The notes beneath the pieces are model-generated. The model searched no databases, had not been told where the DNA came from, and saw nothing but the letters and a program-made list of their open reading frames with translations. Shown piece by piece: positions 47-27,009 of a DNA stretch of 64,000 nucleotides (position 1 is its first letter; the number at the start of each line of letters is the position of its first letter). Source of the stretch: a virus. The stretch lies in the UHGV virus genome UHGV-1430452; one strand, written 5' to 3'. A program made the position numbers and the translations under genes.

Positions 47-499
47 TCATCTATGCTGATCGCAGCACCCATTATCGTAATCGAATTCTTCTCGATCTAA
101 TGCGCAGTAATAGCCAGATATGTTATCGCAAGTCTCTTCATCATAATAGTCTTCAAAATCACAATGAACACACTCCCCGCAGCAATGTTTTTCTCTAATA
201 TCTTCAACATTCGCATACTCATCATCTCCGGTTAAACGTAATAATTCTTTAATCTCATCGTCTGTTAAATCGAGTTCACCAGAGTTAAGTCTACTTCTCA
301 AATATTCTGAAAATACAACATCCGAATTACTTGTATAATCAGAAATGATATCACCTAACTTGTCATAAGCATCCGGTCCTTCTCCATATTCCTCAGCACA
401 TTTCTTACTATTCGGAATATAGTACATACACTGATCTCCGGAAACATCACAATAGTATCTTCCTTCATCCGGATCAAATTTTGCAGCTTTACAAGACAT
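47..499 (-). CDS. Cys-rich hypothetical protein; start moved to internal Met preceded by RBS AAGGAG
   Basis: ORF 47..550 overlaps the upstream gene; the internal ATG (MSCKAAK...) has a good RBS; many CxxC pairs. Confidence 0.4.
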   Translation of the reverse strand: MSCKAAKFDPDEGRYYCDVSGDQCMYYIPNSKKCAEEYGEGPDAYDKLGDIISDYTSNSDVVFSEYLRSRLNSGELDLTDDEIKELLRLTGDDEYANVEDIREKHCCGECVHCDFEDYYDEETCDNISGYYCALDREEFDYDNGCCDQHR

Positions 500-518
500 A
501 GTTTTCTCCTTTCTACAA

Positions 519-803
519 TTAACAAAATTCAAGTCCATACCAAGTATCATTGATTTTAGTTACTTTTAATTTGTCTTCATAATACTCGTTTTTATAATTA
601 TCAATCAGCTTCTTTTTAGCTTTTGATAAATTTGTAAACCATTCCTTATCATACATATCGTAATCCCATTCCCAACTGTCTGGTTCAGTCGCTGTACCGA
701 AGCTATCAATAATAAAGCTATCCTTGCCTAAGAACCCGACAGTATCGACTAAGATACCATCGTCGTAAATACAATATACTTTTCTACCAAGCTTTGGTTT
801 CAT
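519..803 (-). CDS. hypothetical protein
   Basis: 94-aa ORF in compact minus-strand array. Confidence 0.4.
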   Translation of the reverse strand: MKPKLGRKVYCIYDDGILVDTVGFLGKDSFIIDSFGTATEPDSWEWDYDMYDKEWFTNLSKAKKKLIDNYKNEYYEDKLKVTKINDTWYGLEFC

Positions 804-1046
804 AGTTTCCCCTTTCCTATTTATTGCTCTTTAATTCGTTAGATAACGATAACACGATAAGTCCAGCAAATATCAACCAAGCATCCGGTGAAATATTTGA
901 AGTCTGTGCGTTAGTTCCAAAGACAAAACATAAAATTAATAGTATTAATATAGTAATCATATATTTATTCGAATCCTTTCCGTAAAAATAAAACAAAAGA
1001 GTCTCAACTAAATATCAATCTAGTTAAGACTCCTTTGTGTGATAAA

Positions 1047-1262
1047 TCATCTTTTTTTAGTAATCGGAATATTCAAATTCATACCACTCTCTTTCAAATC
1101 CTTACGGACATTATCGAATTCCTCTTTCCACTTATCAGTCCAGTCTCCGGCCTTTGTCTTTTCAGGTCTTGTGAACCTGATTTTAGACAGATCGCATCCC
1201 TTTTCTTTAAGTCCGTTTGCTACTTCGATAATTTCCTTAATAATTTTTCCATCAGTATTCAT
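1047..1262 (-). CDS. hypothetical protein
   Basis: 71-aa ORF; conserved upstream motif at 1298..1322 and RBS AAAGGAGG. Confidence 0.4.
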   Translation of the reverse strand: MNTDGKIIKEIIEVANGLKEKGCDLSKIRFTRPEKTKAGDWTDKWKEEFDNVRKDLKESGMNLNIPITKKR

Positions 1263-23181: not shown

Positions 23182-23397
23182 CTCTCGCTGTATTTGTCGC
23201 TTATCTGCAACAACACGAGAATATCACCAGCTTACTTTTTCTGTCAATAACTTTTTCGCATAAAACGAAAACGATTTATTCTAGAATACAATTTATTTGC
23301 ATATATGCGATTTTGTGTGTATCATATGGATTGATAAGAGAAGAATAAGAAAGAGTCCTAAGACTCATCTTCGCGATAGTATAAAGGAGTTAACCGA
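23182..23397. promoter_or_regulatory. Divergent lysis-lysogeny switch region between the Cro-like and cI-like genes
   Basis: AT-rich 216-bp intergenic region flanked by divergent HTH regulator genes; contains TTCGCGATAGTATAAAGGAG just before the repressor ATG. Confidence 0.6.
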
Positions 23398-23994
23398 ATG
23401 ACAATAGGACAAAAAATAAAAGAATTACGCAATCAACTTAATATGTCGGTGGATGATCTTGCTGTGAAACTGGGTAAGAACCGTGCGACTATCTACCGCT
23501 ATGAACGAGGAGATATCGAGAACCTCCCTCTCGATGTACTAGAACCATTAGCAAATGCTCTTGAGACCACACCTGGTTATTTAATGGGATGGGAAGAAAC
23601 TACGAAAAAGAAAGAGCCTTCAATTATCGATGAAGTTACCATGGGTGACGTTTTTAAAGCGTTACGTCTAGGAAGTAATTTATCGATAGAGGAATTTTCG
23701 CATGAGATTGGATTATCTGCCCAAGACATAAGCAATTATGAAGCAGGAAAGACTCCTATACCTGTAAATATAATTAATCTTGTTGCTGATTTCTTTGGCA
23801 TATCAATAGCGGAAATAGTTAAGGCACACAAAAACAGCGAAAATAGAACGCCTTCTGGTTTCGAAATGAAAAAGGAACGATTTGAACGTTTTAAAGTTTG
23901 GAATAAAGAGTTTGGACGAATACATTTTACTGATGAAGAAATCAATAAAATAATGGAATATACAAGGTTCTTACTTAGCCAAAGAAGACAGTAA
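23398..23994 (+). CDS. XRE-family (cI-like) repressor with two HTH domains
   Basis: 198 aa; IKELRNQLNMSVDDLAVKLGKNRATIYRYERG and a second HTH EEFSHEIGLSAQDISNYEAGK; RBS AAAGGAG. Confidence 0.8.
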   Translation: MTIGQKIKELRNQLNMSVDDLAVKLGKNRATIYRYERGDIENLPLDVLEPLANALETTPGYLMGWEETTKKKEPSIIDEVTMGDVFKALRLGSNLSIEEFSHEIGLSAQDISNYEAGKTPIPVNIINLVADFFGISIAEIVKAHKNSENRTPSGFEMKKERFERFKVWNKEFGRIHFTDEEINKIMEYTRFLLSQRRQ

Positions 23995-24070
23995 GTCTAC
24001 ATAGGTTTACTCTATTTAAAGGAGGTGATGCCTGAATTCAGTTCATCGTAGAATTTACATCAAAGGAAAG

Positions 24071-25657
24071 GTGGAACCAATGACAACGTTTGATATGAAC
24101 AACGCTGTAGACAATGCGTTCGGTATGGACGTATATGCTATCTATCTTCGGAAAAGTCGAGCCGATGTAGAAGCAGAAAAACTTGGAGAAGGAGAAACAC
24201 TAGCAAGGCATAGAAAGATACTAACAGAACTTGCTGCTAGAAAAGGATTGTATATCGGTAAGATTTACGAGGAAATTGTATCTGGTGAAACAATCGAAGC
24301 TAGACCTGAAATACAAAAACTGATAGAAGATTGTTATAAAGGGAAATATAGAGGAATCCTAATAGTAGAAGTTACTCGTCTATCTCGTGGTAATCAAGGA
24401 GACGCTCAAAAAATACTCGACTGTCTCAAATATTCGAATAGAAACAATGGTGTATTAGTTATCACTCCTACTAAGACTTATGACGTTGCACACAGCCAAG
24501 AAGACGAAGAATATATGGAGTTTGAATTGTTTATGTCTCGTCGAGAATATAAGATGATTCAAAAGCGTATGGATCGTGGCCGTAAACAAGCAGTCGTAGA
24601 AGGAAACTTCATGGGTAGTTACCGTCCCTATGGATATGACATCTTAAAAACCAAGACCGGACGAACACTTATACCGAATGAAGATGAAGCTCCTATCGTG
24701 AAAATGATTTACGAATGGACAGTTAACGATAATTTATCTCCTTTCAAGATAGCTGAGCGTTTAACTAATATGGGTGTTCCTACTTATTATGGTGAGAAGG
24801 ATTGGTCTAAAGAAACAGTTAAAACCATTTTGACGAATCAGACATACATGGGTAAAGTTCGTTGGAATGATCGAATGACTGTTAAGACTATGGTCGACGG
24901 AGAACTTAAAGCTACACGACCTCGTTCAAATCATTCCGATCACTTCATGCTATATGATGGAAAACATATGAAACACGCACTCGTCGACGAAGAAACATTC
25001 AAAGCAGCCTCCTCTCGCTTTCATAACGATAGGACAAGATCAAATCTAAAACTTGTTAATCCTCTTGCAGGACTTCTATTTTGTAAGAAATGTGGTAAAT
25101 CTATGGGTTATCAATCATATAGACATAAGAAAAACGGACCAATGGATCGATACAATCATAGACAGTCTGCTAATGGATGCAAGGTTAAGTCAGCAGTTGC
25201 TGAGGATGTTATAAAAGCTGTTATACATGCTTTGAAACTTTATATAGAAGATTTCGAATTTAAGTTAGACAACACTCCAGATGTTGACGAAAATTCAATC
25301 AATACGCAGCTCGAAGCTTTACAAAAAGAAATACGAAAATCCGAACGAAAACTTGCTAAGCTATTCGATTCTTGGGAAGATGAGAAGATAACAGATAATG
25401 AATTTGTTCAAAGGAAAGCCGTCCATAATCAGAAGATAGAAAATATAAAGAGGCAAATGGAAGAACTCGAATATTCGATACCAGAAAGAGAAGAATATGA
25501 GGATAAAATAATATTGCTGTCTGAAGCACTTGTCGCTATCACAGACGAATCGCTTGACGCAGATATTAAGAACGAGTATCTTAAAAGAATCATTGATAGA
25601 ATAGAGTTTAGTAGAGAGAATAACTCAGAGTTTATACTAGATATAGACTTATGCTAA
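24071..25657 (+). CDS. Large serine recombinase (integrase)
   Basis: 528 aa; resolvase-like N-terminus with catalytic-Ser context YLRKSRADVE; C-terminal zinc-ribbon CKKCGKS and coiled-coil; true start may be the ATG at 24080. Confidence 0.88.
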   Translation: MEPMTTFDMNNAVDNAFGMDVYAIYLRKSRADVEAEKLGEGETLARHRKILTELAARKGLYIGKIYEEIVSGETIEARPEIQKLIEDCYKGKYRGILIVEVTRLSRGNQGDAQKILDCLKYSNRNNGVLVITPTKTYDVAHSQEDEEYMEFELFMSRREYKMIQKRMDRGRKQAVVEGNFMGSYRPYGYDILKTKTGRTLIPNEDEAPIVKMIYEWTVNDNLSPFKIAERLTNMGVPTYYGEKDWSKETVKTILTNQTYMGKVRWNDRMTVKTMVDGELKATRPRSNHSDHFMLYDGKHMKHALVDEETFKAASSRFHNDRTRSNLKLVNPLAGLLFCKKCGKSMGYQSYRHKKNGPMDRYNHRQSANGCKVKSAVAEDVIKAVIHALKLYIEDFEFKLDNTPDVDENSINTQLEALQKEIRKSERKLAKLFDSWEDEKITDNEFVQRKAVHNQKIENIKRQMEELEYSIPEREEYEDKIILLSEALVAITDESLDADIKNEYLKRIIDRIEFSRENNSEFILDIDLC

Positions 25658-25715
25658 ATGGTGGCTTTGCTGCCTGTAAGACCTGCACTAAAATGGTGTA
25701 GGTAACTTTTTCCCC

Positions 25716-25770
25716 GACATATATATCATGGTTGTGTTTCTTTTATATCGCCACCATGATATATATCACA
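25716..25770. repeat. Perfect 14-bp inverted repeat (ATATATATCATGGT) with 20-bp spacer downstream of the recombinase gene
   Basis: Arms at 25719..25732 and 25753..25766; candidate attP core or operator. Confidence 0.5.
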
Positions 25771-25813
25771 GGGAAACTATTCTAAACGTTGATATATCAA
25801 GGAGGAGATATAC

Positions 25814-26065
25814 ATGAGAATAGTATGGAAAGACAGTGCGCCTAAAACAAAACCTTGGTTGACGTTCAAATATAGAGAACATATCGTTAGCCAATATGGA
25901 GATGGATGGATTACCGATATACCTGGTGATAACAATATCTATTTTCCGAGAGAGTGTGCTTATAATGCAATCGATAAGTCTCTAGGTGGAAAGACACGAA
26001 AAGCTAATCCTCAAAGACATAAATTAGGAATAAAAGTTATTGGTAGAAAGGACGATGTATCATGA
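25814..26065 (+). CDS. Small hypothetical protein, tandem paralog A (MRIVWKDS...)
   Basis: 83 aa; RBS GGAGGAG; paralog of the next gene. Confidence 0.5.
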   Translation: MRIVWKDSAPKTKPWLTFKYREHIVSQYGDGWITDIPGDNNIYFPRECAYNAIDKSLGGKTRKANPQRHKLGIKVIGRKDDVS

Positions 26066-26313
26066 GAATCGTATGGAAAGATAGTCATAAGCCAAAAGAA
26101 TATGAACCTATGAAATATCGAAATATTTACATCTTCGGTACTCCTGAAGGATGGGAAGTAAATATAAAAGGAGATAATAATCTATACAAGACTCATTACT
26201 GTGCTATGAATGCGATTGATGATTACTTTGGAGATTTTGGAGAACGTGGTACAGAAAAACGTAAACGATATGGAATACAAATAATAGGTAAGAAAAATGA
26301 TGAGACTGCATGA
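26062..26313 (+). CDS. Small hypothetical protein, tandem paralog B (MRIVWKDS...)
   Basis: 83 aa; start overlaps stop of paralog A (ATGA); shared MRIVWKDS, GDNN.Y, NAID, G.RG.. K+.+ GI..IG+K.D. Confidence 0.5.
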   Translation: MRIVWKDSHKPKEYEPMKYRNIYIFGTPEGWEVNIKGDNNLYKTHYCAMNAIDDYFGDFGERGTEKRKRYGIQIIGKKNDETA

Positions 26314-26361
26314 ATCTCAAAAGCCACTTCCTTTTCTGGAGGTGGCATATTTTTATCTAGG

Positions 26362-26913
26362 TTAGACATTTCTATTTTCGTATGACGTAAATTTTACATT
26401 TGTGTACTCGTTAACCAAAAAGCTACATGCTTCATTAACTGTTTTAACGACGGATTCCCCTTCTATATAACTCTGATAATTCCTTCTTTGATTTTCAAAT
26501 TTAAGATCAGGTTCAACCATGGTATCTACACTTAACCATATTAGTTCCGTAGTATAGTCTTCGGTAAAATATCCTTTTATAAAAACCTCTTTCTTTCCAA
26601 CCGTTCCGATTAGTTTTATAAACGACATATCATGCTTCGTCAGATTAAACGCATATCTTATTCCTTTTACATATTGCCCGCCAAGTTTCCTCGACTTAAT
26701 TGTTTCATAGTAATTATCTTTATTGTTGTTCTTTTTATGCCACTCATCCGATATACAAATCCACATTAAAAGTTCGCTTAAAGTTGCAACCATGGATATG
26801 CTATTTTGTTTGTCGCTTGTGCTTAAATATTCATGAAATCTTTTATGAGATTCTCTTAATCCATGGTTTATATACATTAGCCTAAATTCTTCGACACTAT
26901 TCATTATCTGCAT
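26362..26913 (-). CDS. hypothetical protein (moron/accessory candidate)
   Basis: 183 aa; very AT-rich; convergent with the paralog pair; between the lysis and integration modules. Confidence 0.45.
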   Translation of the reverse strand: MQIMNSVEEFRLMYINHGLRESHKRFHEYLSTSDKQNSISMVATLSELLMWICISDEWHKKNNNKDNYYETIKSRKLGGQYVKGIRYAFNLTKHDMSFIKLIGTVGKKEVFIKGYFTEDYTTELIWLSVDTMVEPDLKFENQRRNYQSYIEGESVVKTVNEACSFLVNEYTNVKFTSYENRNV

Positions 26914-27009
26914 TCCTCCTTTTATCGTAATATTCGACCATATAGGAGAAATTTCCTTTTAACCATATGAAGAAAAATAAAAGGGGCTGTTTTATTCGCC
27001 CCAATTATT

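What the first reader, a model, noticed from the sequence alone, without database searches (positions are those of the whole stretch)
25716..25770. Perfect 14-bp inverted repeat with 20-bp spacer immediately downstream of the serine recombinase: candidate attP
Arms ATATATATCATGGT and ACCATGATATATAT flank a 20-bp spacer, about 60 bp after the recombinase stop. Further GATATAT-like repeats follow, up to the next start codon. The size and symmetry fit large-serine-recombinase attP sites. The 20-nt loop and the lack of a following T-run make an intrinsic terminator less likely.
Basis: inference. Interest (0 to 1): 0.45.

Follow-up and report, generated by a model that had tools for sequence, protein, structure and literature searches.

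The report
Phage attachment site of serine integrase
The inverted repeat just after the recombinase gene is the phage's attachment site (attP), used to insert the phage into the bacterial DNA-repair gene xth; it is an ordinary kind of site, but this integrase, site and target had not been described.

Summary
A perfect 14-bp inverted repeat (25719-25732 / 25753-25766, 20-nt spacer) lies 61 nt after the integrase stop. It is the only perfect repeat of 12 bp or more of this type in the 64 kb (about 0.01 expected at 14 bp). It extends to an imperfect 68-bp palindrome, 25709-25776.

The attP interpretation is supported.
- All 24 attP-form sites compared (19 distinct; integrases 62-93% identical) carry a palindrome in the same register. 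It is centred on TT (AA in one), and its arms co-vary.
- In lysogens of relatives the palindrome is broken exactly at that centre and joined to exodeoxyribonuclease III (xth), inside the codons for GD(L/I)-NVAH. These are L022, L025, L024, L030 and a complete 38.7-kb prophage in GCA_965345855.1.
- Joining the host flanks rebuilds an intact xth.
- TT/AA polarity predicts the integration orientation in every case.
- In two contigs arms 34-35/36 identical to the window's switch to other DNA at the same T-run.

Predicted crossover: TT at 25742-25743. A separate hairpin with a T-run (25681-25703) is the integrase terminator.

No simple lysogen of this exact phage was found, and nothing was tested biochemically. 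Verdict: a new member of a known kind, of moderate interest.

The parts
24071..25657 (+). Large serine integrase gene. The ORF from GTG is 528 aa; gene callers use the ATG at 24080, giving 525 aa.
   Evidence: Pfam Resolvase + Recombinase + Zn_ribbon_recom, all above their cut-offs. PHROG 95 'integrase', E = 1e-91.
25681..25713 (+). Terminator-like hairpin of the integrase gene. The stem-loop is at 25681-25703, followed by AACTTTTTCC.
   Evidence: Listed by the terminator scan. Predicted energy -13.2 kcal/mol, z = -4.45. Present in all relatives, with different stem sequences that stay complementary (for example L010, L014, L019).
25709..25776 (.). attP: a 68-bp imperfect palindrome. It contains the perfect 14-bp arms at 25719-25732 and 25753-25766.
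   Evidence: for the palindrome and its conservation. Junctions in relatives break at its centre.
25709..25741 (+). P arm, the integrase-proximal half-site. Predicted to end up joined to the antisense of the 5' part of xth (attR).
   Evidence: The L072 arm is 34/36 identical up to the TT and then switches to unrelated DNA. The homologous arms of L022, L024, L030 and L065 are joined to antisense xth N-terminal coding sequence.
25742..25743 (+). Predicted crossover dinucleotide TT (AA on the xth sense strand).
   Evidence: It is the best dyad centre in all 24 sites compared (19 distinct). From the near-identical arms in L057 and L072, the exchange is confined to 25742-25744. All reconstructed attB sites have AA at the first two bases of the Asn codon of GDxNVAH.
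25744..25776 (+). P' arm, the half-site next to the small genes. Predicted to end up joined to the antisense of the 3' part of xth (attL).
   Evidence: L057/L080 is 35/36 identical to the right of the TT; to the left of the TT is antisense xth (NVAH...SDHCPISLEIDL*). L025, a true lysogen, carries a 29/36-identical arm joined to xth.
25789..25800 (.). Accessory 12-bp palindrome TTGATATATCAA, just before the ribosome-binding site (AGGAGG, 25800-25805). Function unknown; not part of the core site.
   Evidence: Seen. The motif scan flagged it in only part of the relatives, and it is absent from L001, L003-L005, L007-L011, L047 and L072.
25814..26313 (+). Two tandem paralogous 83-aa genes (25814-26065 and 26062-26313). 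They always lie next to the P' arm. Function unknown; a candidate directionality factor by position only.
   Evidence: Adjacent to the att site in every relative examined but one (L058, extra ORF), also where an xth fragment separates int from attP. No Pfam, PHROG, PDB-sequence or fold match.

Best explanation
The 68-bp imperfect palindrome at 25709-25776 is the attP site of the phage's large serine integrase (24071-25657).

Shown here:
- The site is a conserved dyad centred on TT at 25742-25743.
- Its strongest symmetry lies 13-23 bp from the centre, with two invariant symmetric positions (G at -6 and -8 of every half-site).
- In lysogens of related phages the dyad is split exactly at that dinucleotide.
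- Each half is then joined to one half of the host exodeoxyribonuclease III gene (xth), inside the codons for the motif GD(L/I/M)-NVAH. No bases are gained or lost.

Inferred from what is established for serine integrases:
- Integrase dimers bind attP and the attB site in xth and form a synapse.
- They cut all four strands at the central dinucleotide, leaving 2-nt overhangs.
- One pair of half-sites rotates by 180 degrees and the strands are religated.
- Because TT/AA is not palindromic, it fixes the orientation of insertion.

Prediction for this phage: the integrase-side arm becomes joined to the antisense of the xth 5' part, and the P' arm with the two small genes to the antisense of the xth 3' part. 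The gene is split and is not repaired, because this phage carries no xth fragment in the 64 kb seen.

The excision factor is unknown.
For: Integrase: it has all three LSR domains.

Statistics: the repeat is the only perfect one of its class in the window, with 0.01 expected by chance.

Conservation: in 24 attP-form sites (19 distinct) of relatives with 62-93% identical integrases, the best dyad centre falls in the same register. The centre is TT in 18 of the 19 distinct sites and AA in L010.

Co-variation: each left arm matches its own right arm better than the right arms of other sites (19.05 against 15.7 of 30 positions; 0 of 5000 permutations reached the observed value).

Lysogen junctions, all at the centre:
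- L025 (Lawsonibacter MAG): int, hairpin, arm, [AA], then sense xth 3' part, followed by metF and metH.
- L022 (integrase 72% identical): int, hairpin, arm, [TT], then antisense xth 5' part.
- L024 (Hominisplanchenecus faecis isolate), L023, L028 and L041.
- L030, which holds both junctions.
- GCA_965345855.1, a 38.7-kb prophage with both junctions and chromosomal flanks. Its reconstructed attP has the inner sequence TTGTGTTTCA TT TATATCACCT, against TTGTGTTTCT TT TATATCGCCA in the window.

Target: the reconstructed host xth of L030 matches TIGR00633 over positions 1-254 of 255 in one stretch.

Polarity: orientation follows the TT/AA polarity in every case.

Near-identical arms:
- L057 is 35/36 identical to the right of the TT and 13/36 to the left.
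- L072 is 34/36 identical to the left of the TT and 13/36 to the right.

Contig end: contig L020 ends exactly after the central TT.
Against: No simple lysogen of this exact phage was found. All contigs that carry its exact integrase or small gene are in the attP form.

The two contigs with near-identical arms are not plain lysogens:
- L057/L080 carries the hybrid site inside phage-like DNA, 4.7 kb from another complete attP.
- L072 looks like an internal inversion.

The host of this phage and its attB sequence are inferred, not observed. No binding or recombination was tested. The site lies directly upstream of a conserved gene, so it could also have a second, regulatory role.
Confidence: 0.9

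Rival explanations
1. The palindrome is an RNA hairpin that acts as the intrinsic terminator, or as a stabiliser, of the integrase transcript.
For: The region folds strongly as RNA: -27.5 kcal/mol with z = -7.0 on the + strand, and -29.5 kcal/mol on the - strand. It lies downstream of the integrase gene.
Against: - No T-run follows on either strand, the loop would be 12-20 nt, and the terminator scan did not list it.
- A canonical hairpin with a T-run already lies at 25681-25703.
- Non-complementary positions in the arms show no wobble bias: G-T 29, A-C 27, other 77. Symmetry is therefore kept at the DNA level.
- In prophages the two arms are tens of kilobases apart.
Confidence: 0.03
2. The palindrome is, or also is, an operator or promoter region that controls the two small genes at 25814-26313, bound by a regulator other than the integrase.
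For: The P' arm and the small gene are adjacent in nearly all relatives examined (L058 has an ORF inserted between them), also where int and attP are separated by an xth fragment. A second small palindrome resembling the arm ends lies at 25789-25800. In a prophage only about 47-70 nt of phage DNA precede the gene, so any phage promoter must overlap the P' arm.
Against: No sigma-70-like promoter was found between 25700 and 25813. The break at the centre in lysogens shows that the dyad as a whole is a recombination site. The extra palindrome is missing in many relatives. At most, this would be a second function.
Confidence: 0.1
3. The site serves intramolecular inversion or resolution within the phage genome (an invertase-type switch) rather than integration.
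For: L072 shows a 3.8-kb segment, inverted relative to the usual gene order, bounded by the two attP arms.
Against: The partner site in L072 is unique and resembles xth attB with a 2-nt spacing defect, and no unrearranged copy was found elsewhere. Relatives show clean integration into chromosomal xth. The protein has the large-serine-integrase C-terminal domains, not those of a small invertase.
Confidence: 0.03

Closest known systems
attP sites of characterised large serine integrases (phiC31, Bxb1, TP901-1)
   Same: - The site lies next to the integrase gene.
- It is an imperfect inverted repeat of about 50 bp around a non-palindromic central dinucleotide that sets polarity.
- attP and attB share little beyond that dinucleotide core. 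The core concept is described in PMC10083194; phiC31 also uses TT (from my own knowledge).
   Different: The sequence, the host range (gut Clostridia) and the target differ. The arms are unusually symmetric here (14 bp perfect). Activity has not been tested.
Listeria phage A118 integrase with comK, and Bacillus SPbeta SprA with spsM (gene-splitting serine integrases; from my own knowledge)
   Same: A large serine integrase inserts the prophage inside a protein-coding gene and splits it. The phage supplies no replacement.
   Different: The target here is xth, at the codons of the conserved motif GD(L/I)NVAH. Whether excision is developmentally or stress-regulated is unknown. No RDF equivalent to SprB has been identified.
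Sister phages in this data set that carry a 3' xth fragment (L023, L024, L026-L028, L030, L031, L041, L065)
   Same: They share the integrase family (56-73% identity), the half-site pattern, the TT centre, the attB in xth and the neighbouring small gene.
   Different: In them attP lies about 365 bp after int, beyond a phage-borne 3' xth fragment. That fragment fuses in frame to the host 5' part and rebuilds the gene. The window phage has no such fragment.

Membership tests
Large-serine-integrase attP site | A cognate integrase with Resolvase, Recombinase and zinc-ribbon domains encoded nearby | tested here: met
   All three Pfam domains score above their cut-offs in the 528-aa protein that ends 61 nt upstream.
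Large-serine-integrase attP site | An imperfect inverted repeat of about 40-60 bp around a central dinucleotide | tested here: met
   24-nt arms at 88% complementarity around a 20-nt spacer, centred at 25742/25743. The symmetry is conserved at positions 6, 8 and 13-23 from the centre in 19 distinct sites.
Large-serine-integrase attP site | A non-palindromic core dinucleotide shared with attB that fixes orientation | tested here: met
   The core is TT in 18 of 19 distinct sites and AA in L010. attB has AA on the xth sense strand. In every junction examined the orientation agrees with this polarity.
Large-serine-integrase attP site | Hybrid attL and attR sites in lysogens, broken at the core, from which intact attB and attP can be rebuilt without duplication or loss | tested here: met
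   Met for relatives: L030 and GCA_965345855.1 hold both junctions, and the rebuilt xth is collinear with TIGR00633. For arms near-identical to the window's, it is met only through hybrid sites in rearranged phage-like contigs (L057/L080, L072).
Large-serine-integrase attP site | No extended identity between attP and attB, unlike the core of tyrosine integrases | tested here: met
   Across the junction, identity to the window drops from 34-35/36 to 13/36. attB and attP half-sites share only TT, G at -6 and -8, and a few other bases (read directly from the sequences).
Large-serine-integrase attP site | Integrase-dependent attP x attB recombination, and RDF-dependent reversal | not testable with these tools
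   This needs an in vitro or plasmid assay. No RDF has been identified.
Rho-independent terminator | A G+C-rich stem with a short loop, followed directly by a T-run | tested here: not met
   The palindrome has a 12-20-nt loop and no T-run, and the scan did not list it. The scan did list the separate hairpin at 25681-25703.

The most novel reading that the evidence does not exclude
The site may be more than a plain attP. With its always-adjacent pair of unknown 83-aa genes, it could form a unit in which those proteins are a new family of directionality factors.

The integrase may also use attP for rearrangements inside phage genomes. Two cases suggest this: inversion against an internal xth-like pseudo-site in L072, and capture of a neighbouring remnant carrying a hybrid site in L080.

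Splitting xth would then give gut Clostridia a phage-controlled, reversible switch of a base-excision-repair gene.
Probability: 0.15. Interest if true: 0.6.

Novelty: new member of a known kind. Interest (0 to 1): 0.35.

Why it matters
It defines an uncharacterised trio: an integrase, its attP (about 25709-25776, core TT) and its attB (about 40 bp of xth around GD(L/I)NVAH). The trio comes from a widespread group of large human-gut phages. Such trios are the raw material for genome-engineering tools.

It also shows that this phage group targets the coding sequence of a conserved catalytic motif. That choice should allow a broad host range.

One branch of the group splits the repair gene, while a sister branch carries a spare 3' half that rebuilds it. 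No paper in the searched library links serine integrases or prophage integration sites to exodeoxyribonuclease III.

Tried and rejected
- Megablast of 23300-27000 against GenBank phages found no match.
- The first genome scan, with the single integrase, found nothing.
- Exact-pattern scans for the two arms in IMG/VR and in JGI/ENA metagenome contigs found only attP forms and two chance hits.
- Look-ups of the window's exact integrase and small protein found only attP forms. The same was true for P0132 and P0145.
- I first took L057 to be a lysogen. With longer flanks it turned out to sit in phage-like DNA next to another attP, so it is used only as a hybrid-site breakpoint.
- The xth 3' fragment of L057 found no full-length, near-identical xth, so no empty attB of that host was obtained. 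P0341 turned out to be an unrelated frameshifted xth, but it does show an unoccupied attB-type sequence.
- The small 83-aa protein gave no Pfam, PHROG or PDB-sequence match. Its AlphaFold model (pLDDT 76.8) gave no Foldseek match.
- The RNA-structure reading was rejected on the mismatch spectrum.
- A search for a shifted zinc-ribbon motif in attB compared with attP gave no clear answer and was dropped.

Full report
**Observation**

The sequence is as described. ATATATATCATGGT lies at 25719-25732 and its perfect reverse complement at 25753-25766, separated by 20 nt. The integrase ORF (24071-25657) ends 61 nt before the left arm. The repeat extends imperfectly to 24-nt arms at 25709-25732 and 25753-25776, 88% complementary. 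It is the only perfect inverted repeat with arms of at least 12 bp and a spacer of 3-40 nt in the whole window. Simulated sequences of the same first-order composition gave a mean of 0.01 such repeats at 14 bp.

**Setting**

The 528-aa protein has the Resolvase, Recombinase and zinc-ribbon domains of a large serine integrase.

The whole window looks like phage DNA. Almost all genes are on the minus strand. Late and lysis genes lie to the right of 26362, and early genes to the left of 23181. A short plus-strand block holds a cI-like repressor (23398-23994), the integrase, the repeat, and two paralogous 83-aa genes (25814-26313).

This position, between the lysis end of the late genes and int, is the classical place for attP in a phage-form genome.

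**What lies between int and the repeat**

A 10-bp stem with a 3-nt loop at 25681-25703, followed by AACTTTTTCC, was found by the terminator scan. It folds at -13.2 kcal/mol, z = -4.45. Relatives keep it, with different but still complementary stems. This hairpin, not the large repeat, is the likely integrase terminator.

**Relatives in the phage form**

A scan of IMG/VR gave 21 loci with integrases 62-93% identical. Genome, metagenome and protein look-ups gave further phage-form contigs. These included copies identical to the window from human-gut metagenomes.

All 24 attP-form sites compared in register carry a long imperfect palindrome at the same place, and the further phage-form contigs inspected show the same site. 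When the best dyad centre was computed blindly for each, it fell in the same register. The central dinucleotide on the integrase strand is TT in 18 of 19 distinct sites and AA in one, L010.

Symmetry is strongest 13-23 bp from the centre. It is also invariant at positions 6 and 8, where every half-site has a G (read directly from the sequences).

The arms co-vary. For example, TATATA/TATATA in the window corresponds to TCTCTA/TAGAGA in L002 and GTGTATAT/ATATACAC in L007. Each left arm matches its own right arm better than the right arms of other sites: 19.05 against 15.7 of 30 positions, and 0 of 5000 permutations reached the observed value.

The non-complementary positions show no G-T or A-C excess (29, 27, and 77 other). 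The symmetry is therefore a property of the duplex DNA, not of an RNA from either strand.

**Lysogens of relatives**

A scan of species-representative genomes with the integrase alignment gave loci with 56-77% identical integrases.

*Two loci with the window's architecture* (int, hairpin, arm):
- In L025 (a Lawsonibacter MAG) the arm ...TATCATGG TGGCGATATA is followed by AA and then CGTGGCTCAC.... This reads in frame as NVAHEEIDLKNP...SWWSYRF...SDHCPV, the 3' part of exodeoxyribonuclease III. Next come metF, metH and other housekeeping genes.
- In L022 (integrase 72% identical) the arm ...GATGG ATGGGTGATA is followed by TT and then TAAATCCCCGCAATAGAT..., the antisense of ...KKPVIYCGDL.

*A sister group with a phage-borne xth fragment.* Here a 3' fragment of xth lies between int and the palindrome.
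- Free forms (L026, L027, L031) have the full palindrome about 365 bp after int.
- Integrated forms (L023, L024 from a Hominisplanchenecus faecis isolate, L028, L030, L041) have it broken at the centre. The host 5' part is fused in frame to the phage fragment.

*Loci with both junctions.*
- L030 holds both ends of a 6.5-kb remnant.
- Assembly GCA_965345855.1 holds both ends of a 38.7-kb prophage on one 168-kb contig, with bipA on one side and a giant Big_2 protein on the other.

*Reconstructions from these junctions.*
- Joining the host flanks of L030 gives an xth that matches TIGR00633 over positions 1-254 of 255 in a single stretch. The insertion is therefore conservative.
- Joining the phage flanks gives palindromes of the same pattern as the window's. 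The inner sequence of the GCA_965345855.1 site is TTGTGTTTCA TT TATATCACCT, against TTGTGTTTCT TT TATATCGCCA in the window.
- In all reconstructed attB sites the core is the AA that starts the Asn codon of GD(L/I/M)-NVAH.
- An unoccupied example of this sequence is seen in L076: TGTGGAGACCTA AA TGTGGCACAT.

**Polarity**

The core is AA on the xth sense strand in every case. Elements with TT on the integrase strand (L022, L024, L030, L065) have the integrase-side arm joined to antisense xth. L025, with AA on the integrase strand, has it joined to sense xth.

This is the behaviour expected of a non-palindromic core dinucleotide of a serine integrase (concept: PMC10083194).

For the window, with TT on the integrase strand, two things follow:
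- The P arm (25709-25741) should become joined to the antisense xth 5' part.
- The P' arm (25744-25776), with the small genes, should become joined to the antisense xth 3' part.

**Arms nearly identical to the window's**

Two contigs give breakpoints for essentially this phage's own site.
- In L057/L080 the sequence to the right of the TT is 35/36 identical to 25744-25779. To the left of the TT it is 13/36 identical and is the antisense of NVAHTSYDLKNS...GSDHCPISLEIDL*. This is the predicted partner and orientation.
- In L072 (integrase 95% identical) the left arm is 34/36 identical up to the T-run and then switches to unrelated DNA.

Together they confine the exchange to 25742-25744. The dyad centre selects 25742-25743.

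Neither contig is a simple lysogen.
- With 10-kb flanks, L080 shows the hybrid site inside phage-like DNA, 4.7 kb after int and a second, complete attP. The module in between is shared with L073.
- L072 has the P' arm and the small genes inverted 3.8 kb further on, joined to a sequence that resembles attB with a 2-nt spacing defect. Undoing the inversion restores collinearity with window 355-520 / 800-1090 and the all-minus-strand gene order.

I read both as products of past integrase-mediated exchange at this site. Their history is not resolved, and mis-assembly cannot be excluded without the reads.

Contig L020 ends exactly after the central TT. This would be expected if integrated and free forms coexist in that sample.

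**Alternatives**

*Terminator or RNA hairpin.* The region would fold strongly (-27.5 kcal/mol). Against this reading, it lacks a T-run, a real terminator lies just upstream, the arms show no wobble bias, and the arms are separated in prophages.

*Regulatory role toward the small genes.* This cannot be excluded as a second function. The P' arm is next to that gene in nearly all relatives examined (L058 is the exception). In a prophage only about 47-70 nt of phage DNA precede the gene. No sigma-70-like promoter was found there. The extra palindrome TTGATATATCAA (25789-25800) is missing from many relatives.

**What is not known**

- The host of this phage and its actual attB were not observed. 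Pattern scans and exact-protein look-ups gave only attP forms.
- The directionality factor is unidentified. The two 83-aa proteins are candidates by position only. They have no family, sequence-structure or fold match.
- The window holds no xth-like sequence, so integration should split xth without repair. This was not observed directly.

**Comparison and novelty**

This is a typical large-serine-integrase attP in every feature that could be tested. It resembles A118/comK and SPbeta/spsM in splitting a host gene (from my own knowledge).

The integrase, its site and its target appear undescribed. No paper in the searched library combines serine integrase or recombinase, or prophage integration site, with exodeoxyribonuclease III.

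The finding is a new member of a known kind. The side observations are more unusual than the site itself:
- the sister phages that rebuild xth;
- the conserved unknown gene pair;
- the apparent intragenomic rearrangements.

**Verdict**

Interest is moderate (0.35).

Noticed in passing
window 25814-26065 and 26062-26313; also L030:571-1052, L066:3001-3252, L072:14908-15404: A pair of paralogous genes of about 83 aa (MRIVWKDS...GWxxxxPGDNNxY...NAxD...G...GK) lies directly beside the P' arm in nearly every relative (L058 has an ORF inserted), also where an xth fragment separates int from attP. It has no Pfam, PHROG, PDB-sequence or Foldseek match (model pLDDT 76.8). It is a possible directionality factor, by position only.
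   Followed up: partly
L023, L024:11515-12330, L026, L027, L028, L030:6706-7530, L031, L041, L065:4546-5367: Sister phages carry a 3' fragment of xth (about 125 codons, ...KKPVIVCGDxNVAA...SDHCPV*) between int and attP. After integration the host 5' part fuses in frame to it, through a linker encoded by the P arm, and this rebuilds a full-length xth. The phage copy reads NVAA where hosts read NVAH. That changes the attB-like sequence and may prevent self-targeting.
   Followed up: partly
L072:11652-15480 (ENA ERZ27297804 k141_285088; a second contig of about 90 kb is similar): A 3.8-kb segment next to int appears inverted. The P arm is joined at the T-run to TCCAGGTCAACC.... The P' arm with the small-gene pair lies 3.8 kb away in reverse, joined to ...GTGTGTTACA. 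The reconstructed partner site resembles xth attB with 2 extra bases. Undoing the inversion restores collinearity with window 355-1090 and the all-minus gene order.
   Followed up: partly
L080:3587-10252 (ENA ERZ27317063 k141_24985, 96.5 kb); L073: One phage-like contig holds a complete attP next to int. About 4.7 kb further on it holds an attL-type hybrid site: antisense xth 3' fragment, TT, then a P' arm 35/36 identical to the window. In between lie one small-gene homologue and about 4 kb of unknown ORFs, including a DUF7211 gene. L073 shares the module. This could be capture of a neighbouring remnant by excision between non-cognate sites, but the origin is unresolved.
   Followed up: partly
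window 25646-25680: Compared with L001 and most relatives, the window (and L046, L055, L056) has about 28-35 extra bases at the end of int. The extra bases are flanked by the repeat AAATGGTG (25656 and 25691). They change the last residues (...LDIDLC* instead of ...LDIDLH*) and move the stop codon out of the terminator stem.
   Followed up: no
window 25789-25800: The 12-bp palindrome TTGATATATCAA directly precedes the ribosome-binding site of the first small gene and resembles the outer ends of the attP arms. Similar copies occur in L002, L013, L014, L015, L016 and L056; a weaker one is in L012 (CCGATAGATCAA). It is absent from L001, L003-L005, L007-L011, L047 and L072.
   Followed up: partly
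L020 (IMGVR_UViG_3300045988_148360), contig end: The contig stops exactly after the central TT of its palindrome (...CATCATAAGTATCTTCCT TT). This is what an assembly graph would give if free and integrated forms coexist in the sample.
   Followed up: no
L058:3560-4000 and L081:9632-9934: In one close relative a 100-aa minus-strand ORF with its own terminator is inserted between the P' arm and the small gene. The adjacency of attP and the small gene is therefore not absolute.
   Followed up: no
window 26323-26346: A terminator-like hairpin (GCCACTTCC...GGAGGTGGC followed by a T-run) lies between the convergent ends of the second small gene and the minus-strand gene at 26362-26913.
   Followed up: no
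L074-L079 (for example L076:866-1655): A gut bacterium found in many samples has xth split into two ORFs of 129 and 111 aa by a frameshift upstream of the att region, not by a prophage. Its GDLNVAH region is an intact, unoccupied attB-type sequence.
   Followed up: partly
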